Source: a virus. From it: a DNA stretch of 64,000 bases. How positions within the stretch are numbered: the first letter of the stretch is position 1; each line of letters begins with the position of its first letter. The notes under the pieces are model-generated. The model did no database searches. It was not told the DNA's origin and worked only from the letters and a program-made list of their open reading frames with translations. A program made the position numbers and the translations under genes. Below, in pieces: positions 20,274-53,004 of the stretch. The DNA is taken from positions 14,884-78,883 of the IMG/VR virus record IMGVR_UViG_3300042478_002320, one strand, 5' to 3'.

Positions 20274-20325
20274 CAAATTATTAACATTAGTATGTTTGTA
20301 ATGTTTGTATTATTTATTAATTTTG
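20270..20325 (+). promoter_or_regulatory. TTAACA direct-repeat operator plus Bacteroidetes promoter
   Basis: TTAACA at 20270 and 20281; TAATTTTG at 20318. Confidence 0.6.
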
Positions 20326-20347: not shown

Positions 20348-21127
20348 ATGGAAAGTTTATTTAGTTCGTATAAACAAGCATTAAAACTTAAAGAATTAGG
20401 TTTTGATGAACCTTGTCTATATCAATATGTTAGAGATGCTGATAATAATGGGGAATTGATACCTATTATATCAGAAACAAATTACCCTATTGTTAGAGAT
20501 AATAATCAAGTTTTTATTTGTAGCGGAGGAGATTGTTTTGCAGCACCACTAAACTCACAAGCTTTTAGTTGGATTAGAGAGAACTATGGATTGTGTCATT
20601 TTATTAATTTTAGTGGAAAGAATTACTGTAGTGGGTGGGAAGATAGAGATTTCAATGAGTTTGGATATAAAATCTATAATACATATCAAGAAGCAGAATC
20701 TCAATGTTTAACTAAGTTACTAAAATTTGTGAAGAAGATTCAAAAAGAATCTTCAAAAAATATTGACATTGCAGATTCTGAAGATTTAGATTTTAATAAA
20801 CTAAATAGTACAGATAAGAATATTATTATTGATTCTAAACTTACCAAAAAGATAGATTTGACTAAAGATGAATTTCAATATCTATCAAATGATAAGAAAG
20901 CTGAGTATATTAATGACTTTTCTAAATCAGGATTTCATATGCAAAAGTGGTTGTGGAACCAAGCATCAGATAGTCAAAAATCTATGTATATACAATGTAG
21001 AATTGATAAGCAATACAAACTACAAGATTACGAATTCTATTACGCCTCAGAATCTCAGAAAGATACTTATATAGGTAATAGAATTAAGAATGGGTATAAT
21101 TGGAAGGAATCTTCTCAAACAATTTAG
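20348..21127 (+). CDS. phage protein of the 'ALELKELGFDEPC' family with C-terminal extension
   Basis: paralog of 22960-23301. Confidence 0.7.
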   Translation: MESLFSSYKQALKLKELGFDEPCLYQYVRDADNNGELIPIISETNYPIVRDNNQVFICSGGDCFAAPLNSQAFSWIRENYGLCHFINFSGKNYCSGWEDRDFNEFGYKIYNTYQEAESQCLTKLLKFVKKIQKESSKNIDIADSEDLDFNKLNSTDKNIIIDSKLTKKIDLTKDEFQYLSNDKKAEYINDFSKSGFHMQKWLWNQASDSQKSMYIQCRIDKQYKLQDYEFYYASESQKDTYIGNRIKNGYNWKESSQTI

Positions 21128-21135
21128 TACGGAAC

Positions 21136-21259
21136 AGTCAGGTGGTGGAATGGAAGACACTGAAAAACTGTAATGAGGTTTGCCAATCCTCACGTTAAAC
21201 AAAAAAGGTATCAGCGCAGAAGTGCGGAAGCATTGCAGGTTCAAATCCTGTCCTGACTA
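21136..21259 (+). ncRNA. tRNA-like RNA with expanded anticodon domain (possible intron-containing tRNA)
   Basis: acceptor AGTCAGG/CCTGACT, D-arm TGGTGGAATGGAAGACAC, T-arm GCAGG-TTCAAAT-CCTGT; about 50 nt insert where the anticodon loop should be. Confidence 0.75.
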
Positions 21260-21270
21260 CTAAAAACATA

Positions 21271-21302
21271 TTTGGAATTCTAAAAACTTTGTTCTATATT
21301 TG
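21271..21302 (+). promoter_or_regulatory. Bacteroidetes sigma-A promoter
   Basis: TTTG-N20-TATATTTG. Confidence 0.7.
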
Positions 21303-21334
21303 TAATATAGTTAACAGCAAAAAAAAACAAAAGT

Positions 21335-21721
21335 ATGGAAAATATTTTTAAAATTGCAAAATATGAAGCTACGGAAATCGGCTTCAACCATATTGGTTAT
21401 GACGATTACAAAATCACATATCATAAAGGTAAAAAATCACATCAAATCAGAATAGTTGTTGATGGTTTTATAACAAATCGAGTTATAAATTTAATTGATG
21501 GTAATTCGGGTTATAGAAATCAAATACTATCAGCAATTAGTGATGTCAAAAATGCTAAAATCGATTTAACGCAAAAACAATCCGAAAAAAATAAAGTAAC
21601 ATTACGTTACATTGAAACATTTTATAATAAACTAATTGTTAACAATGTTAAGAGCTATTTAATAGGAATTAGCAAAGAGGAAAGCAGAGACATACTAACG
21701 ATACATAAATTAATATCTTAA
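21335..21721 (+). CDS. hypothetical protein
   Basis: 128 aa ORF after a promoter. Confidence 0.7.
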   Translation: MENIFKIAKYEATEIGFNHIGYDDYKITYHKGKKSHQIRIVVDGFITNRVINLIDGNSGYRNQILSAISDVKNAKIDLTQKQSEKNKVTLRYIETFYNKLIVNNVKSYLIGISKEESRDILTIHKLIS

Positions 21722-21750
21722 AAAAAGCTACTAACAAAATTATATAAAAA

Positions 21751-22074
21751 ATGGTATTTCAAAAACTAAAAAGAGTGTGGTCTCATAATGATATGAACTA
21801 CATACCTAAATTCAGTGAAACTTTTCCTGAGTTAAACAAATTATCATACGAAGAAATGTGTGAGAGGTGGAAATCACTTGGAATTAAGTTTTACTCAGAA
21901 GAGAAAACAGAAATTAGTGTATGGATAAGATTTACATTACCTTTTGCATTTATCCTTTTTTTACTAATGTTTTTCTCTTTACCTTTAGTATTTATGATCA
22001 GAGGAAAATGGAGCTATCCTCATGGCAAAAATAATTTAATACTAAATTGGTTTCGTTCTTTAGGATTAGAGTGA
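21751..22074 (+). CDS. membrane protein
   Basis: 107 aa; one TM segment. Confidence 0.7.
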   Translation: MVFQKLKRVWSHNDMNYIPKFSETFPELNKLSYEEMCERWKSLGIKFYSEEKTEISVWIRFTLPFAFILFLLMFFSLPLVFMIRGKWSYPHGKNNLILNWFRSLGLE

Positions 22075-22090
22075 GTTGAAAATAATATAT

Positions 22091-22167
22091 GGTCAGGTGG
22101 GCGTAATGAGGAACGGTTCCGAGTCCATTTAATGGTTGCTTATCAGGTTCGAATCCTGCCCTGACTA
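22091..22167 (+). ncRNA. tRNA-like RNA with aberrant anticodon arm
   Basis: acceptor GGTCAGG/CCTGACT, T-arm CAGG-TTCGAAT-CCTG; central CCAT-TTA-ATGG hairpin is non-canonical. Confidence 0.7.
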
Positions 22168-22260
22168 CAAATGTGTTGTTCCCTTGAGAAAGGAATCTCG
22201 TAAGTTCAAAAAAAAAGTCCGTAATGTAACTCAACACAGAGGGGTTCTCTCCCTCAAAAT

Positions 22261-22375
22261 AGTCAGGTGGCGGAATGGTAACGCAGGGGAAACCCGAGGG
22301 GATGTCACAGATGAGTGTTAAGATGAGTTTGAATCTCAGCTTCTCCTATTACAGGTTCGAATCCTGTCCTGACTA
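22261..22375 (+). ncRNA. tRNA-like RNA with multi-hairpin insert replacing the anticodon loop
   Basis: acceptor AGTCAGG/CCTGACT, D-arm TGGCGGAATGGTAACGC, stem AGGGGAA/TTCTCCT enclosing hairpins, T-arm ACAGG-TTCGAAT-CCTGT. Confidence 0.75.
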
Positions 22376-22438
22376 CGCAAAAAACATAAGATGGAGTTTC
22401 CTTGCCTTGTAAAAGGTGGGTTTTAAAAATCTAAAGAC

Positions 22439-22511
22439 AGTCAGGTAGCTCAATGGTAGAGCGGGTGCGTAATAGTAGTTGCCGTAGCAGGTTCGATTCC
22501 TGTCCTGACCA
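22439..22511 (+). ncRNA. tRNA-like RNA with degenerate anticodon arm
   Basis: AGTCAGG/CCTGACC acceptor, canonical D-arm TAGCTCAATGGTAGAGC, T-arm GCAGG-TTCGATT-CCTGT; no clean 5 bp stem/7 nt loop anticodon arm. Confidence 0.75.
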
Positions 22512-22532
22512 CTAAACTAAAAACCAAAAATA

Positions 22533-22769
22533 ATGTTAGGAAAATTAATCATTGTTACACTTTATGTCTATGTATGTATTCCTCTTTCAAATGGAGGTAA
22601 GGAAGAGTATATAGAAAGGGCAGGAAGAGCCTCTTTTGAAGTACGAGGTACATTCACTAATACTGACTCTCTAATAATGGAGACTGTCAAAAAGTATGGA
22701 GTTGATCTCCAATATAACTCAGTTAAGACTGAGATAGAGACATTAAGGATTAAATGTGAATGTAATTAA
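22533..22769 (+). CDS. hypothetical protein
   Basis: 78 aa; hydrophobic N-terminus. Confidence 0.55.
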   Translation: MLGKLIIVTLYVYVCIPLSNGGKEEYIERAGRASFEVRGTFTNTDSLIMETVKKYGVDLQYNSVKTEIETLRIKCECN

Positions 22770-22786
22770 AAGTAATTATATTGTAT

Positions 22787-22914
22787 GGCAAGGTGGCGTG
22801 GCGGGAGGACGCAGGAGCACTATACGTTGGGTCGAGACTAACCTACTGAAAAGTAGTAATTTAAGAGATAAAAATGGGTTCTGTCTGTGGGTTCGAATCC
22901 CACCCTTGCTGCCA
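22787..22914 (+). ncRNA. tRNA-like RNA with multi-hairpin insert and encoded CCA
   Basis: GGCAAGG/CCTTGCT acceptor + GCCA, T-arm GTGGG-TTCGAAT-CCCAC; inserted hairpins GTTGGGTC-GA-GACTAAC and CTACT-GAAA-AGTAG. Confidence 0.75.
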
Positions 22915-22959: not shown

Positions 22960-23301
22960 ATGAAAAATGAATTCATTCCATACGAACAAGCGTTGGAACT
23001 AAAAGAACTTGGATTTGATGAACCCTGTTTTGGTAAATTTTACTATAGTCATTTAGAAATTGGAGGAAATTGGCGTAATGATGATTTTAAAGAAGACCCT
23101 GATATTTTTATTTCGGCACCACTATACCAACAAGTTTTTCGTTGGTTTAGAGAGAAGTATGGTGTTTATTTTCACCCACAAAAATTCGATGAAAGTAGAT
23201 GGTGGATTCAATGGGGTTATTGGAATAGTTCTGTTTTCGAAACCTATGAAGAGGCTGAACTTGAATGTGTTAACAAATTAATAGAAATAGCGAAACTATG
23301 A
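22960..23301 (+). CDS. phage protein of the 'ALELKELGFDEPC' family
   Basis: FIPYEQALELKELGFDEPC..APLYQQVFRWFREKY..TYEEAELEC. Confidence 0.75.
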   Translation: MKNEFIPYEQALELKELGFDEPCFGKFYYSHLEIGGNWRNDDFKEDPDIFISAPLYQQVFRWFREKYGVYFHPQKFDESRWWIQWGYWNSSVFETYEEAELECVNKLIEIAKL

Positions 23302-48774: not shown

Positions 48775-49841
48775 ATTTCAATATTTTTAAATATATGTGC
48801 AATAACATCTACTGTCCACCCATTCCCAAGCATTTTATACCTTTGAGTATTTGATACACTATCAGTATATCCAATAGGCACAGTTTGCAATCTCTCACAA
48901 TGTTCTGATGTTAAAAAAAACATTTCATTTCCATCTGTAATTGTTTTTTTCTGCCCATAACCTGTACTTGTTGTAAGTGTTGGATGCTTTCCATCAATAT
49001 GATAAATTCGTTTTGCCATATCAAATGTATTGTTTTTTATTTCAAATTCTGTAACTGCCTTATCATATTTGCAATCTTCAATACCCAAACATTCTTTTAG
49101 TTTCTCCCAATATTCAACATCAGGTATTGAAAAACTACCATCAGTTCTAAACCAATGTTCTACCATAGTTTTTGGGGCATCACAAAAATTTGCTATTTCA
49201 TTTATGGTTTTTGTTTTATGTTTTCTTAAAAACAAACCAAGTTCTTTTTTATCAATGTAGTTTTTCCTTACACTAACTTTAAAATTTGATTTACTCATCA
49301 ATATTTTATTTTTACGGTCATTTACAATCGGTAGTCCTAAAACATCTGCAATAACTTCATTTGAGTTTGGTAATTCATTCTGAAAGGGAATATTTGTCCA
49401 ATACAATCGTTTTCTCTGCTGTGCTGAAAATAATGAACTGCAAATCTCAATAGGTTTTAAACCCAACTCATTTGATATTATATCTTGCCACTCTTGTTTC
49501 ATTTTAACATTCTCCAAAAGAAAATATTTTGGTTTTGTTTCCTTTAATACTCTAACATATTCCCAAAATAATTTACTCTTCCCATCAAATCCATTTCTTA
49601 AACCTGCGTTGCTGAAACTTTGACAAGGGCTACCCCCAATCAATAAGTCAATCTTTGGTAATGTACTAACATCAATTTTTGTTATATCACCTAACTGAAT
49701 TGTTTTTGGATAATTATGCATAGTAACTTGTATAGCATACTTATCTATTTCAGATGCAAAGTAATTGTCATATTGAATATTAGCTTTATTCAATGCAATT
49801 TGCCCACAACTTATCCCATCAAACAAACTTAATACATTCAT
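48771..49841 (-). CDS. C5 cytosine DNA methyltransferase (paralog 3, HTH-like insert in TRD)
   Basis: same motifs. Confidence 0.95.
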   Translation of the reverse strand: MNVLSLFDGISCGQIALNKANIQYDNYFASEIDKYAIQVTMHNYPKTIQLGDITKIDVSTLPKIDLLIGGSPCQSFSNAGLRNGFDGKSKLFWEYVRVLKETKPKYFLLENVKMKQEWQDIISNELGLKPIEICSSLFSAQQRKRLYWTNIPFQNELPNSNEVIADVLGLPIVNDRKNKILMSKSNFKVSVRKNYIDKKELGLFLRKHKTKTINEIANFCDAPKTMVEHWFRTDGSFSIPDVEYWEKLKECLGIEDCKYDKAVTEFEIKNNTFDMAKRIYHIDGKHPTLTTSTGYGQKKTITDGNEMFFLTSEHCERLQTVPIGYTDSVSNTQRYKMLGNGWTVDVIAHIFKNIEI

Positions 49842-51028
49842 ATTTCAATATTTTTAAATATGTGAGCAATAACATCAACAGTCCAACCGTTACCAAGCAT
49901 CTTATATCTTTGAGTATTTGATACACCTTCTGTGTAATTGTCAGGAACTGTTTGTAATCTCTCACACTCGATTGGAGTTAATTTTCTAATCTTGTACTTA
50001 TCATTTATGTCATCTGTTATTAAAGAATTACCAACCCCGGCACTACCCCCACCATTTGAAGATAAACAAGGTGATTTTCCATCAATTGAATAAATCCTCT
50101 CTCCTTGGGAGAAATTTCTTTGTAAGTTCTTTCCATTATCAAGCCATTTTTTATTATTGCCTAATGCACCAACACATTTTAATTCAGATTCTGAATTATG
50201 TTTATCAATTGTTATAACATAAGGCATAAATGATGGTGTAACTGCAACGAATTTACCCTCATCCAAATAAATCCTATCTTGTAATGATGGTTGTAAATTT
50301 GCAATTCCATTTCTACCTCCTTTTGAATTAATACAGATAGGAATATCTCTAATGTATTGCTGATCTCTTCCTCCCATTTTATAATATCCTGCATGTATTG
50401 TTCCTGACTTATCAGGAATATCACCATCTCTTGTTACTTTATTATTATGTCTAATTAATTTTTCAAATGCTATATTTGATATATAATATTTGCTATCTAC
50501 AGTAGTTTCCAATATATCTTTTAAATATATGTTCTTATCTTTGCATTGTTGAATATTTTTAATATTTGTCCAATATAATCTTACTCTGTTTTGTGCTGAT
50601 ACCAATGCACTATTTATTTTTATAGGCTCAACTCCCAAACTTTTTGAGATTATATCGGAGAATTCTTTTTTCATTTTAACATTTTCAAGTAAAAATTTAA
50701 CGTTTGGATTAATATTTCTAATCTCATTTAGTATTCTAAGAAATTCAAAAAAAAGTTTACTCCTTGGATCATTGAAATTAAGTTGTTTTCCTGCAAAGGA
50801 AAACCCTTGACAAGGGCTACCCCCAATCAATAAGTCAATCTTTGGTAAATTAAATCCATTTATTTTCGTAACATCACCTAATTGAATTGTGTTAGGGTAG
50901 TTTTTATTTGTTACTTCCATAGCATGTTTATCAATCTCACAAGCGAAGTAGTTATTGTAATTAATACCTAATCTATTTAAAGCAATTTGCCCACAAGACA
51001 TTCCATCAAATAAACTTAATATGTTCAT
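49838..51028 (-). CDS. C5 cytosine DNA methyltransferase (paralog 2, possibly multispecific)
   Basis: same motifs; TRD with several repeated sub-modules. Confidence 0.95.
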   Translation of the reverse strand: MNILSLFDGMSCGQIALNRLGINYNNYFACEIDKHAMEVTNKNYPNTIQLGDVTKINGFNLPKIDLLIGGSPCQGFSFAGKQLNFNDPRSKLFFEFLRILNEIRNINPNVKFLLENVKMKKEFSDIISKSLGVEPIKINSALVSAQNRVRLYWTNIKNIQQCKDKNIYLKDILETTVDSKYYISNIAFEKLIRHNNKVTRDGDIPDKSGTIHAGYYKMGGRDQQYIRDIPICINSKGGRNGIANLQPSLQDRIYLDEGKFVAVTPSFMPYVITIDKHNSESELKCVGALGNNKKWLDNGKNLQRNFSQGERIYSIDGKSPCLSSNGGGSAGVGNSLITDDINDKYKIRKLTPIECERLQTVPDNYTEGVSNTQRYKMLGNGWTVDVIAHIFKNIEI

Positions 51029-51840
51029 AATTCAATATTTTTTAATATATGTGCAATAACATCAACTGTCCAACCGTTACCCAACATCTTATATCTTTGA
51101 GTGTTTGATGCACTTTTTGTATAACCAATAGGTACAGTTTGTAGTTTTTCGCATTCTGTAGGAGAAAGCATTCTATGAGCTTCTCTATCATTGTCTAAAA
51201 AACTTTCTCTAATACTAATTGTAGGTCTACCGCTACCTCGTATACCTTTATAATAGGTAGCTGTTAATGTATTAAATATATCTCTACGTTTGAAAAATCT
51301 ATTTATTCCACAAGATGTTGGAAATCCTTCGCCATCTATAAAGTCATATATATTATAATTTTTTTGTTCAGGTTGTTCTACATTTGGTATATTTGTCCAA
51401 TACAATCGTCTTCTTGCTTGAGGTACAAACTTAGCACTCGAAATTTCAATTGGTTTAACATTTAATGATTCAGTAATTATATCCTCCCATTCTTTTTTCA
51501 TAATTACATTTTCAAGTAGAAAATAAGTAGGTTGTATGTTTTTCAAAACTTTTACATATTCCCAAAACAAACCACTTTTACCATCAAAACCACTGTTATC
51601 TCCTGCTTTGCTAAAACTTTGACAAGGACTACCTCCCATCAGTAAATCAATTTTTGGTAATGTTGATAAATCTATTTTTGTAATATCACCTAATTGAATT
51701 GTTTTAGGATAATTATCTTGTGTTACATCCATAGCATGTTTATCTATTTCTGATGCAAAGTAATTATTATACTGTATACCCACCTTATTCAAGGCAATTT
51801 GACCGCAACTCATACCATCAAATAAACTTAATACGTTCAT
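51025..51840 (-). CDS. C5 cytosine DNA methyltransferase (paralog 1, short TRD)
   Basis: same motifs. Confidence 0.95.
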   Translation of the reverse strand: MNVLSLFDGMSCGQIALNKVGIQYNNYFASEIDKHAMDVTQDNYPKTIQLGDITKIDLSTLPKIDLLMGGSPCQSFSKAGDNSGFDGKSGLFWEYVKVLKNIQPTYFLLENVIMKKEWEDIITESLNVKPIEISSAKFVPQARRRLYWTNIPNVEQPEQKNYNIYDFIDGEGFPTSCGINRFFKRRDIFNTLTATYYKGIRGSGRPTISIRESFLDNDREAHRMLSPTECEKLQTVPIGYTKSASNTQRYKMLGNGWTVDVIAHILKNIEL

Positions 51841-51864: not shown

Positions 51865-53004
51865 TTAATGTGAATCTCCTACATTATGTTTCTCACTGAA
51901 GATAAGATATTCAGGATTTATTATCTTCGCTACTCTATCTCTTGATCCGCTTATACATTTAACAACAATACCTTCATGAGGAATCTTCTTACCCTTCGGA
52001 AGATTTTCAATATAATTGTTTAAGATAAATGTCTTACATATGTCTTCTAAATATAAACCCTCATACAATACTTCAACAGTTGGTAAATCTACTTCATTAC
52101 AGAATTCAGATACGAAATCTGATCCTACATAATTATTTCCAATCATAATATCAAACACAGCGAATCTTACATCATTCAGTCCATAGTCATAACCTTTTTG
52201 GATACCCATTCCGTAGATCTCCCCATATATAGTAATGCCCTCCCCAAATGTATCTTCTACTGAAAGATACTTAAAGCTATTAACATAGTTAATGAGTTTA
52301 TTCTTAATATCATATTTATTAGCTATATCATACCAAACATTGGTATCGTAAAATCCCTGAGAGTCAGATCCCTTTTCTACATTGTGAGATCCTACTACAA
52401 ATTCATATCCTGCTAATTTAAATCCAAAGAATTTCTTAATTCTATCTAAGATGCTTAACTTAGATTTTCTAACAACTCCGAACCTTGCATTTGTTCCATG
52501 AATTTTTCTCGTTATTTGAACTAAGCTATCCTCATCAAACATGTTTGGAACATTTTTGAAATTTGGAAATTTGTAATATATTTTAAAGTTCGGATTTACA
52601 TCGTATTTAAAAGTCTTTCCATTAGATAATCTAATCATCTTAGCAGGTGGCTCATACTTCTGTATGTTTAGTATATCCATACAATCATCCCCATCTTTTA
52701 AATTGTGATCAGATACAAAATTTATAGGAATTATTAAACATTCAGAATATACACCTTTGAGTTTTACAGTCCTTACTCTATTTCCGTTTCTTAGATAGTT
52801 TTGTATTCCTAACTCAGTTGCTAATTCTGTAGGGATTACTGCATCTGTAGTGGCACATACTACTAAATCTCCTACTGTATGTAATCCTTTTTTAGTAACA
52901 CAACTCCACCCTTGAATCATAACTTGCTCAATGTTGTCGGCTCCCTCGATTTTTTTAATCTCAGTAACTTTTGAGATATAACAAACACTATTAATGTTTT
53001 TCAT
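51865..53004 (-). CDS. RNA ligase, DRB0094 family
   Basis: N-terminal IEGADNIE OB-like domain; KIHGTN (motif I), YGEIYG, FAVFDI, EGIVVK, KIIN. Confidence 0.9.
   Translation of the reverse strand: MKNINSVCYISKVTEIKKIEGADNIEQVMIQGWSCVTKKGLHTVGDLVVCATTDAVIPTELATELGIQNYLRNGNRVRTVKLKGVYSECLIIPINFVSDHNLKDGDDCMDILNIQKYEPPAKMIRLSNGKTFKYDVNPNFKIYYKFPNFKNVPNMFDEDSLVQITRKIHGTNARFGVVRKSKLSILDRIKKFFGFKLAGYEFVVGSHNVEKGSDSQGFYDTNVWYDIANKYDIKNKLINYVNSFKYLSVEDTFGEGITIYGEIYGMGIQKGYDYGLNDVRFAVFDIMIGNNYVGSDFVSEFCNEVDLPTVEVLYEGLYLEDICKTFILNNYIENLPKGKKIPHEGIVVKCISGSRDRVAKIINPEYLIFSEKHNVGDSH

What the first reader, a model, noticed from the sequence alone, without database searches (positions are those of the whole stretch)
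21136..22914. Family of five tRNA-shaped RNAs with shared acceptor stem but no canonical anticodon
Seen: five elements with intact acceptor and T-arms (GGTTC(G/A)A(A/T)TCC) and D-arm-like segments. Four share essentially the same acceptor (A/G)GTCAGG/CCTGAC(T/C) with discriminator A. The anticodon domain is either degenerate (22091, 22439) or replaced by 50-70 nt multi-hairpin inserts that differ in each copy (21136, 22261, 22787). Only the last encodes CCA. Inference: these are not ordinary decoding tRNAs. Options are tRNA mimics/decoys (against anticodon nucleases or uncharged-tRNA sensors), tRNA scaffolds presenting variable RNA cargo, RNase P/Z punctuation signals, or intron-containing tRNAs.
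Basis: partly seen in the sequence, partly recalled or inferred. Interest (0 to 1): 0.82.

Follow-up and report, generated by a model that had tools for sequence, protein, structure and literature searches.

The report
Phage tRNA-shaped RNAs with swappable inserts
This lake phage carries five genes for RNAs that keep the upper body of a leucine tRNA but have no codon-reading loop; they belong to a very large, phage-only family whose middle parts are exchanged like cassettes and whose job is still unknown.

Summary
Five tRNA-shaped elements lie at 21136-21259, 22091-22167, 22261-22375, 22439-22511 and 22787-22914, all on the + strand. Four share the acceptor AGUCAGG/CCUGACU-A and one T arm. None has a 5-bp/7-nt anticodon arm.

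They are not decaying pseudogenes. The same 22-nt T-arm/acceptor motif occurs in at least 120 IMG/VR phage contigs, up to eight times per contig. It occurs in only 36 MAG contigs among 185,579 prokaryote species, and in no cultured phage.

The constant part matches a host-type tRNA-Leu: D arm, T arm, A15/U48, G18G19 and A73. That is the part reported to suffice for E. coli LeuRS. Where this shell varies, it covaries.

The middle is hypervariable (155 sequence clusters among 179 elements) and uncoupled from its surroundings. Near-identical flanks carry unrelated inserts, and identical inserts sit in unrelated flanks.

Best reading: stable, non-decoding RNAs that are cut out like tRNAs, with a constant chassis carrying exchangeable payloads. 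Their excision would also cut early transcripts. Processing, charging and payload function are all inferred.

The closest known relatives are the phage T5 RNA1/RNA2 "tRNA-like stable RNAs", whose function is unknown. This scan had already met the same family on other DNA (e1-5339362, e1-5802566, e1-5963717, e1-5668738).

The parts
21136..21259 (+). E1. tRNA-Leu-type shell with a ~72-nt A-rich insert. The insert holds a 5-bp hairpin with a 9-nt loop and a CGCA-GAAG-UGCG hairpin.
   Evidence: R1 60.5 bits and Rfam tRNA 32.8 bits with 61 nt skipped. A14, A15, G18G19, U48 and A73 are all present. It starts 8 nt after the stop of ORF 20348-21127. The shell-constrained fold is -23.0 kcal/mol, against -33.6 for an alternative fold that pairs the D-arm region with the insert.
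22091..22167 (+). E2. A 77-nt member of a conserved non-cloverleaf subclass. It has the family acceptor and T arm, but the D arm is replaced by GUAAUGA + hairpin GGN-AYGGU-N'CC.
   Evidence: R1 48.9 bits. Eight members are known (window, L139, L061, L084, L107, L101, L028, L013). They covary in the small hairpin (A-U/G-C/C-G), the T stem and the acceptor (L101).
22261..22375 (+). E3. tRNA-Leu-type shell, then a GGG-GAAA-CCC mini-hairpin and a ~50-nt arm, giving a 5-way junction.
   Evidence: R1 65.1 bits. The unconstrained MFE is already the cloverleaf-like shell. All five LeuRS determinants are present. In a near-identical strain (run X16, contig spanning 21450-22374) the insert at 22294-22342 is replaced.
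22439..22511 (+). E4. A 73-nt element with the family acceptor (A1.C72 mismatch), a class-I 4-bp D arm and the T arm. One bulged 8-bp hairpin with an AGUA tetraloop stands in place of the anticodon and variable region.
   Evidence: Rfam tRNA 40.9 bits and ARAGORN 'tRNA-???'. R1 51.7 bits. Fold. A lake variant changes U35 to C, turning a U.G pair of that hairpin into C-G (position 22473).
22787..22914 (+). E5. A tRNA-shaped element with its own shell (GGCAAGG/CCUUGCU, G73, encoded CCA), a class-II-type 3-bp D stem and a ~70-nt insert.
   Evidence: R1 27.0 bits, E 1.4e-4. Its 3' motif otherwise matches mostly ordinary tRNAs of unrelated phages, so it is not part of the big shared-shell family. 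Lake variants at 22839 and 22880 each turn a predicted G.U into G-C.
20295..20325 (+). Bacteroidota-type promoter motif (TTTG-N17-21-TAnnTTTG) ahead of ORF 20348-21127 and E1.
   Evidence: Pattern search: 11 matches in the window against 3.6 expected. No + strand terminator-like site lies between 19700 and 23700.
21271..21302 (+). Bacteroidota-type promoter motif just after E1. It probably starts the unit ORF128-ORF107-E2-spacer-E3-spacer-E4-ORF78-E5-ORF113.
22168..22260 (+). Spacer between E2 and E3. It is a separate conserved RNA motif with constant ends and a variable middle. Processing of the flanking elements would release it.
   Evidence: 15 copies in 14 sources (13 fetched loci plus the window) share GUUGUUCCCUUGAGAAAGG...CAACAC-AGAGGnnUUCUCnnCCUC. 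They usually sit directly between tRNA-like elements.

Best explanation
E1-E4, and by analogy E5, are genes for stable, non-decoding small RNAs built on a constant tRNA chassis.

Shown:
- The chassis is the acceptor/T-arm minihelix plus a D arm that forms the tRNA elbow. In most members it is specifically the upper body of a host-type tRNA-Leu.
- The anticodon and variable arms are replaced by unrelated inserts of about 20-130 nt.
- The inserts behave as exchangeable modules.

Inferred:
- The elements are co-transcribed with the neighbouring early genes from Bacteroidota-type promoters.
- Host RNase P cuts at position 1.
- The 3' end is trimmed after A73 and CCA is added. This is the route expected for the ordinary tRNA genes of these phages and hosts, which have the same N73-C-A/U-A trailers.
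- The product is a tRNA-shaped RNA of 70-180 nt. The same cuts split the polycistronic early transcript into separate mRNAs.
- Because the shell keeps every determinant that E. coli LeuRS needs, and the anticodon and variable arms are dispensable for that enzyme, many members are probably leucylated and then bound by EF-Tu. They cannot decode.
- The insert projects from the core as a payload whose partner is unknown. Recombination across the 25-28-nt constant halves moves payloads between phages.
For: Family and shell:
- The 22-nt motif is in at least 120 viral contigs, with 2-8 copies in many.
- Model R1 gives 230 hits in 100 loci.
- Variant shells carry fully compensatory acceptor and T-stem changes. 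96.5% of cells are paired, 14 of 15 pairs change on both sides, 0 of 500 shuffles reach this, and slid controls give 32-43%.

Not decoders. E4 has a tetraloop hairpin in place of the anticodon arm.

tRNA-Leu origin:
- The D arm is the same type as in canonical tRNA-Leu genes of the same contigs.
- A Chitinophagales host tRNA-Leu(GAG) shares the Leu-type D arm, A73 and the CUAA trailer. Its T arm is identical to E4's over 17 nt.
- Per-position conservation is A14 156/179, A15 157, G18G19 166, U48 145 and A73 161. All five are present in 111 of 179, including E1 and E3.
- Review PMC9976931 states that for E. coli LeuRS A73, A15-U48, G18G19 and A20a are the determinants, and that variants lacking the anticodon arm and long variable arm remain active.

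Same 3' context as real tRNA genes.

Modularity:
- There are 155 insert clusters among 179 elements.
- 8 of 12 syntenic pairs (both flanks at least 85% identical, L012/L041 99-100%) carry unrelated inserts.
- 20 of 27 pairs with the same insert have no alignable flank.
- E3's insert is replaced in a sister strain.

Payload constraint: recurrent classes keep loop sequences while their stems covary.

Context:
- 31% of elements start within 30 nt of an upstream same-strand stop, against 10% for ordinary tRNAs.
- Promoters are present and no terminators.

Precedent: T5 RNA1 and RNA2 have the same build and are annotated as stable RNAs.
Against: Nothing shows the RNAs themselves.
- The two RNA libraries hold only assembled contigs. 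These carry family shells together with flanking sequence, and show no ends and no CCA.
- As a set, the inserts are barely more structured than random genomic segments (mean z -0.61 against -0.28).
- They show no excess of a closing helix or of paired bases over shuffles, and they share no motif. So 'structured cargo' is shown only for recurrent classes.
- The shortest members, E4 included, carry essentially no payload, which points to a function in the shell itself.
- No conserved partner protein lies nearby.
- No complementarity was found to the window or to three Bacteroidota genomes.
- E1's tRNA-like fold is 10 kcal/mol less stable than an alternative fold.
- LeuRS rules come from E. coli, not Bacteroidota. 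E2 and E4 lack U48.
Confidence: 0.5

Rival explanations
1. Punctuation only. The elements matter as RNase P / 3'-processing sites that cut the early polycistronic transcripts and set mRNA ends, as tRNAs do in mitochondria. The excised RNAs and their inserts have no function of their own.
For: The elements sit tightly between same-strand ORFs. 31% lie within 30 nt of an upstream stop and 34% within 30 nt of a downstream start, against 10% and 8% for ordinary tRNAs. In the window they follow stops by 8, 16 and 17 nt. No terminator-like sites lie on the + strand. As a set the inserts are not more structured than shuffles.
Against: Punctuation needs no 20-130-nt insert and no tRNA-Leu tertiary core. 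Identical inserts persist in unrelated flanks (20 of 27 pairs). Recurrent classes keep loop sequences while stems covary. Many elements sit inside pure tRNA arrays, where extra cut sites add nothing.
Confidence: 0.2
2. Shell-centred decoy or sponge. The constant upper body is the active part. It titrates or diverts a host factor that reads tRNA acceptor/elbow shape, such as LeuRS, EF-Tu, a tRNA-targeting defence nuclease or an acceptor-end-modifying toxin. The middle only has to stay out of the way.
For: Both strands of the acceptor and T stems are almost invariant in sequence across hundreds of contigs. The LeuRS determinants are retained. Minimal members such as E4 are a shell with a capped hairpin. 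There are several copies per genome.
Against: The shell is not a copy of any host tRNA. The exact motif appears in 36 contigs among 185,579 species, all of them MAG contigs; most carry the same insert-bearing elements (probably phage DNA binned with bacterial genomes) and a few are chance matches such as an ordinary tRNA-Phe. The first three acceptor pairs differ from the host tRNA-Leu. This reading does not explain long conserved payload classes. No defence or toxin partner was identified.
Confidence: 0.15
3. Recombination modules. The identical 25-28-nt halves persist mainly because they are crossover sites that shuffle inserts and neighbouring gene cassettes between co-infecting phages. On this view the RNAs are by-products or selfish passengers.
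For: Insert and flanks are uncoupled in both directions. GIY-YIG and T5orf172 endonuclease genes and ERF recombinase genes recur near the elements. An earlier first-reader note, e1-5802593, made the same suggestion.
Against: Both halves are kept complementary. Variants are G.U or fully compensatory, which is selection on RNA pairing and not on DNA sites. The tRNA tertiary positions (A14, A15, G18G19, U48) are conserved.
Confidence: 0.1
4. They are working tRNAs after all, with unconventional or intron-interrupted anticodon domains.
For: A few family members are canonical. tRNA-Lys(UUU) on the family acceptor/T arm occurs in L020, L050 and L080, with a compensatory change in the anticodon stem. 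Leu anticodons are over-represented among ARAGORN calls (8 against about 1.6 in shuffles). ARAGORN's intron mode can force models on E1, E3, E4 and E5.
Against: None of the five window elements has a 7-nt loop on a 5-bp stem at the right place. The intron models have mismatched stems and odd intron positions, and give a tRNA-Leu without its long variable arm. There is no group I intron signal. About half of all ARAGORN calls are expected by chance given the shell.
Confidence: 0.05

Closest known systems
Phage T5 RNA1 (144 nt) and RNA2 (125 nt), annotated 'tRNA-like stable RNA with unknown functions' (NC_005859 30501-30644 and 32959-33083)
   Same: They lie in a phage tRNA region interleaved with small ORFs and homing-endonuclease genes. 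RNA1 has acceptor and T arms closing a molecule with a tRNA-Leu-type D arm, plus long extra arms where the anticodon and variable arms should be. RNA2 has the same T arm as this family (GCAGG-UUCGAAU-CCUGU) and an internal second T-arm-like hairpin, as some family inserts have.
   Different: There is no sequence homology beyond tRNA-like parts. R1 gives 27 bits on part of RNA2 and 10.6 bits on RNA1. T5 has single copies with their own acceptor stems. It does not have a near-invariant shell reused with hundreds of inserts. The host phylum differs, and no cassette exchange is described.
Phage T4 species 1 and 2 RNAs (rnaC, rnaD) of the tRNA cluster (from my own knowledge; not checked here)
   Same: Small stable RNAs co-transcribed and processed with phage tRNAs. 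Their function has been unknown for decades.
   Different: As far as I recall they are not built on a shared constant shell.
Minimal tRNA-Leu substrates of E. coli LeuRS (Larkin et al. 2002, as reviewed in PMC9976931)
   Same: They have an acceptor, D and T arms with A73, A15-U48 and G18G19 but no anticodon or variable arm, and they are still aminoacylated. The shell here keeps the same set.
   Different: Those are laboratory constructs. Here the missing arms are replaced by natural inserts, and charging is untested.
Engineered 'tRNA scaffold' for recombinant RNA (for example PMC3753655)
   Same: Cargo RNA is inserted in place of the anticodon stem, so the cell processes and stabilises it like a tRNA. 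This is the same design logic.
   Different: It is man-made. Its anticodon stem is kept as the closing helix, whereas family inserts show no general closing helix.
tmRNA tRNA-like domain, and YrlA (Rfam RF02553)
   Same: Non-decoding RNAs that keep a tRNA acceptor/T-arm/elbow module. tmRNA is charged and binds EF-Tu.
   Different: tmRNA has G3:U70 alanine identity, pseudoknots and a tag ORF. YrlA is circularly permuted and partners with Ro. Here the YrlA model scores 34 bits against a threshold of 69, and only by bridging two neighbouring elements. No TROVE gene is present in the record.

Membership tests
Canonical decoding tRNA (cloverleaf, Rfam RF00005) | 7-bp acceptor stem with discriminator, and a T arm with a GTTCRAnnC-type loop | tested here: met
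   All five elements. Covariation is seen across the family.
Canonical decoding tRNA (cloverleaf, Rfam RF00005) | 5-bp anticodon stem with a 7-nt loop (U33, purine 37) at positions 27-43 | tested here: not met
   ARAGORN finds none, apart from a 2-nt 'anticodon' for E4. The folds show a tetraloop hairpin (E4) or multi-arm inserts. Family-wide calls are about twice the shuffle level, and 1 of 112 for elements of 95 nt or more.
Canonical decoding tRNA (cloverleaf, Rfam RF00005) | Score above the Rfam gathering threshold over the full model | tested here: inconclusive
   E4 scores 40.9 and E1 32.8 bits, above 29, but only by skipping the whole middle. E2, E3 and E5 fall below threshold.
Bacterial tRNA-Leu as LeuRS substrate | Discriminator A73 | tested here: met
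   E1-E4 have A73, as do 161 of 179 family members. E5 has G73.
Bacterial tRNA-Leu as LeuRS substrate | Class-II D arm with A14, A15, G18G19 and A20a, and U48 to pair with A15 | tested here: met
   E1 and E3 have all of these, as do 111 of 179 family members. E4 lacks U48 and E2 has a different core. The D arm type equals that of canonical phage and host tRNA-Leu.
Bacterial tRNA-Leu as LeuRS substrate | Actually aminoacylated with leucine | not testable with these tools
   This needs an in vitro LeuRS assay or charged-tRNA sequencing.
Phage tRNA-like stable RNAs (T5 RNA1/RNA2 type) | Encoded among phage tRNA or early small genes, with acceptor, T arm and D-like arm closing long extra arms | tested here: met
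   Annotation and folds of T5 RNA1 and RNA2, compared with the window folds.
Phage tRNA-like stable RNAs (T5 RNA1/RNA2 type) | Accumulates as a discrete stable RNA during infection | not testable with these tools
   Only assembled contigs of two metatranscriptomes were available. They hold family shells but show no ends.
Phage tRNA-like stable RNAs (T5 RNA1/RNA2 type) | Sequence homology to T5 RNA1/RNA2 | tested here: not met
   R1 gives 27.3 bits on the 3' part of RNA2 and 10.6 bits on RNA1. The resemblance is architectural only.
YrlA / bacterial Y RNA (RF02553) | Permuted tRNA-like module with a Ro-binding stem, a score above threshold, and a Ro (TROVE) gene | tested here: not met
   34 bits against 69, with the hit spanning E3's 3' half and E4's 5' half. 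No TROVE match in the record.
Intron-containing bacterial tRNA (group I intron in the anticodon loop) | A group I intron fold, with exons that restore a canonical anticodon arm | tested here: not met
   No Intron_gpI hit in the window. The inserts are 20-75 nt. ARAGORN's intron models are non-canonical.

The most novel reading that the evidence does not exclude
These phages run an 'RNA display' system. A constant leucine-tRNA chassis is processed, CCA-tailed and charged by host enzymes whatever it carries. It presents a library of exchangeable RNA payloads that act on host targets, for example as RNA decoys against defence systems. The 25-28-nt chassis halves let phage populations trade payloads by recombination. 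The neighbouring constant-ends/variable-middle spacer RNA would be a second frame of the same kind.
Probability: 0.15. Interest if true: 0.9.

Novelty: new variant of a known kind. Interest (0 to 1): 0.7.

Why it matters
Phage 'tRNA-like stable RNAs' have been annotated in T5, and by my recollection in T4, for decades without a function.

This family supplies hundreds of natural variants on one fixed chassis, in abundant lake phages of Bacteroidota. That turns the old question into a comparative and testable one: which parts are constant, which are free, and which payloads spread.

If the chassis is charged by LeuRS, these would be a new class of aminoacylated non-decoding RNAs in bacteria besides tmRNA.

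If the payloads act on the host, they would be a large unexplored reservoir of phage regulatory or anti-defence RNAs, and a natural counterpart of the engineered tRNA scaffold.

On the practical side, standard tRNA finders either miss these genes or mislabel them with spurious anticodons. That distorts phage tRNA and codon-usage surveys.

Tried and rejected
- **RNA evidence.** Two metatranscriptome runs (X19, X20) held only small shares, as assembled contigs. They show family shells with other inserts and pieces of ORFs 21320-21579 and 21854-22085. They show no RNA ends, no CCA and no splice joints specific to RNA, so they give no verdict on processing. Many 'joints' in the DNA runs come from other family members sharing the 20-25-nt shell halves, and I did not read them as deletions.
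- **Partner protein.** All-against-all clustering of 2,967 ORFs from 157 loci found no family in more than 25 loci. The recurrent ones are ordinary phage genes: terminase, DUF932, GIY-YIG, T5orf172, ERF and VRR-NUC. The window's neighbours have unknown function.
- **tRNA-related enzymes.** The 78.9-kb record (about 42% complete) has no CCA-adding enzyme, RtcB or Ro gene.
- **Known RNA families in the inserts.** There are none at Rfam gathering thresholds in 20 multi-copy loci, and none in the window at E up to 10.
- **Shared insert motif.** There is none beyond shuffles.
- **General structure of the inserts.** They show only a weak thermodynamic signal and no general closing helix.
- **Antisense targets.** The longest matches of the five inserts to the window are no longer than for shuffled inserts. 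There are no payload-specific hits in three Bacteroidota genomes.
- **Relatives through ORF 20348-21127.** None were confirmed.
- **E5's 3' motif.** It mostly matches ordinary tRNAs of unrelated phages.
- **Weak sixth R1 hit in the record** (C1:11947-12024). It is not tRNA-like.
- **Cultured phages.** None has the shell.
- **Literature.** Six full-text searches found no description of the family.
- **tmRNA.** ARAGORN calls it only at very relaxed settings, and I rejected those calls.
Full report
**What is there**

The window is part of a 78.9-kb IMG/VR virus record. Its completeness is estimated at 42% and its G+C is about 29%.

Four of them share the string CAGGTTCRAWTCCTGYCCTGAC, which covers the T arm and the 3' acceptor strand. 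That is four matches against 0.00 expected.

Default ARAGORN reports only 22439-22512, as a tRNA with an undetermined 2-nt anticodon. Rfam's tRNA model passes its threshold for E4 (40.9 bits) and for E1 (32.8 bits). In both cases it does so by skipping the whole middle.

A YrlA hit of 34 bits (threshold 69) is an artefact. It bridges the 3' half of E3 and the 5' half of E4.

**The elements are members of a very large family**

Many hold 2-8 copies.
- The elements are 66-178 nt long.
- They read AGUCAGG-UG-GCGGAAU(U)GGUAGACGC, then a variable stretch, then U-ACAGGUUCGAAUCCUGU-CCUGACU-A.
- The same scan over one genome from each of 185,579 prokaryote species gave 36 hits, all on MAG contigs and many binned to Bacteroidota. 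Most carry the same insert-bearing elements, so they are probably phage DNA binned with bacterial genomes. A few are chance matches such as an ordinary tRNA-Phe.
- No cultured phage in the GenBank collection has the shell.
- In one lake metagenome the shell's 3' half reaches a summed depth of about 10,600. The rest of this phage sits at about 100.

**The shell is an RNA structure under selection**

I built a covariance model, R1, from 73 elements. It finds all five window elements at 65, 60, 52, 49 and 27 bits. It gives 230 hits in the first 100 loci.

Lower-scoring hits include long-insert elements with quite different but fully complementary acceptor and T stems. Examples are AGUUGUG/CACAACU, AGCCAAG/CUUGGCU and AGUUAGA/UCUAACU. 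Single changes are G.U wobbles.

On 63 aligned sequences:
- 96.5% of cells pair;
- 14 of 15 pairs change on both sides;
- no shuffle out of 500 reaches this;
- slid controls pair at 32-43%.

Two caveats apply. The alignment was fitted to the model, and it includes a few ordinary tRNAs.

**The shell is the upper body of a tRNA-Leu**

- Its D arm is a 3-bp stem with loop AAU(U)GGUAGA. That is the type seen in the canonical tRNA-Leu genes of the same contigs, and it differs from their tRNA-Ser and tRNA-Tyr.
- A Chitinophagales chromosome has a tRNA-Leu(GAG) with the same D-arm type, A73 and a CUAA trailer. Its T arm, GCAGGUUCGAUUCCUGU, is identical to E4's. Only the first three acceptor pairs differ from the shell.
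- The base just before the T stem is U in 145 of 179 elements, although it borders the hypervariable part.
- A14, A15, G18G19 and A73 are present in 156, 157, 166 and 161 of 179. All five positions are present in 111, including E1 and E3.
- According to review PMC9976931, these are the determinants of E. coli LeuRS. The same review states that variants lacking the anticodon arm and long variable arm are still charged, unless A73 or the D/T-loop contacts are destroyed.
- The 'ACAA/ACUA' tails are not special. Ordinary tRNA genes of these contigs and of the host end the same way.

**The middle is not an anticodon domain**

- ARAGORN of 179 elements, against 12-22 when the middles are shuffled. 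It calls only 1 of the 112 elements of 95 nt or more.
- A minority are real tRNAs on the same acceptor/T arm. tRNA-Lys(UUU) occurs in three contigs, with a compensatory change in its anticodon stem.
- In the window, E3 folds without constraints into acceptor, D arm, a GAAA-capped mini-hairpin, a 50-nt arm and the T arm.
- E4 has one bulged 8-bp hairpin with a tetraloop.
- Lake variants change U.G to C-G in that E4 hairpin. They also change two predicted G.U pairs to G-C in E5.
- E2 is not degenerate. It belongs to an eight-member subclass in which a small hairpin, GGN-AYGGU-N'CC, replaces the D arm. That hairpin covaries as A-U, G-C and C-G, and so do the T stem and, in one member, the whole acceptor.
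- The intron hypothesis fails. There is no group I signal, and ARAGORN's intron models are ad hoc.

**The inserts behave as modules**

- The 179 unique elements fall into 155 insert clusters. They share no k-mer beyond chance.
- Twelve inter-contig pairs have both 150-nt flanks at least 85% identical. Eight of these carry unrelated inserts. One such pair has flanks that are 99-100% identical.
- Conversely, 27 pairs share an insert at 80% similarity or more. Twenty of them have no alignable flank.
- A near-identical strain of this very phage has another insert in E3.
- Recurrent classes keep loop sequences while their stems covary.

Taken as a set, however, the inserts are only marginally more stable than random genomic segments. 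They show no general closing helix. They are purine-rich, at A 33% and G 24%.

**Context**

- Bacteroidota-type promoter motifs lie at 20295-20325 and 21271-21302. No terminator-like site is on the + strand.
- E1, E2 and E5 begin 8, 16 and 17 nt after a stop codon.
- Family-wide, 31% of elements start within 30 nt of an upstream same-strand stop, against 10% for ordinary tRNAs.
- Excision like a tRNA would therefore also cut the early transcripts.
- No conserved partner protein was found.
- No antisense target was found either.

**Comparison with what is known**

The T5 record annotates RNA1 and RNA2 as 'tRNA-like stable RNA with unknown functions'. They lie in a tRNA region interleaved with small ORFs and HNH endonucleases.

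Their sequences and folds show the same build as the window elements. RNA1 even has a Leu-type D arm, and RNA2 has this family's T arm. There is no real sequence homology.

I found no paper describing the family.

Earlier agents of this scan met the same family on other genomes and reached similar descriptions. I re-derived the points I use.

**Verdict**

These are real, selected, non-decoding tRNA-shaped RNA genes, and they are a new, modular variant of a known but unexplained kind.

The most likely mechanism has three parts. The RNA is excised like a tRNA and becomes a stable RNA. Its leucine-tRNA chassis is probably charged. It carries an exchangeable payload. All of this is inferred from anatomy and from E. 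coli rules. The RNA itself, its ends, its charging and any payload partner remain to be shown.

Noticed in passing
window 22172-22255; also L013, L019, L028, L032, L039, L053, L061, L075, L079, L097, L100, L136, L185: The spacer between E2 and E3 is a separate conserved RNA. It has constant ends (GUGUUG-UUCCCUUGAGAAAGGAA ... CAACAC-AGAGGnnUUCUCnnCCUC) and a variable middle, with 15 copies found. Its invariant GAGAA and UUCUC loops could kiss. It usually lies directly between two tRNA-like elements, so their processing would release it. This is a second 'constant frame, variable middle' design in the same phages.
   Followed up: partly
window 22376-22438: The spacer between E3 and E4 is 93% identical over 57 nt to L139 336-392. 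In L139 it is followed by a family element with a different insert.
   Followed up: partly
window 21136-21259: E1's insert contains a stretch partly complementary to its own D-arm region. The alternative fold is about 10 kcal/mol more stable than the tRNA-like fold. It could be a conformational switch or a coincidence.
   Followed up: partly
window 20348-21127 and 22960-23301: The ORFs flanking the array are paralogues (phrog_25117-like, unknown function). Homologues sit next to family elements in 11 loci, and L039 has three in tandem just upstream of its elements.
   Followed up: partly
window 51865-53004 (-), 49838-51840 (-): An RNA-ligase-family gene (PF09414 with a PHA02142 OB fold) lies next to two C5 cytosine DNA methylase genes, about 30 kb from the array. 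It is a possible RNA-repair function, and no link to the elements was shown.
   Followed up: partly
L140 3789-3927 (Chitinophagales chromosome OZ244113.1); L014 587-742; L062 12256-12431: A subfamily has U1-A72, G73 (UGUCAGG.../CCUGACA-G), a Leu-type D arm and inserts of about 100 nt. One copy lies in a complete bacterial chromosome. I did not determine whether that copy is in a prophage or is native.
   Followed up: no
L011 7609-8193 (-): A viral contig carries a tmRNA hit (49 bits) abutting a group I intron hit (98 bits), next to family elements.
   Followed up: no
L039 3721-3808, L134, L135, L027, L047, L130; T5 RNA2: Several inserts contain a complete second T-arm-like hairpin (GGUUCGAnUCC loop), as T5 RNA2 does. 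They may be relics of recombination between tRNA genes, or a second elbow module.
   Followed up: no
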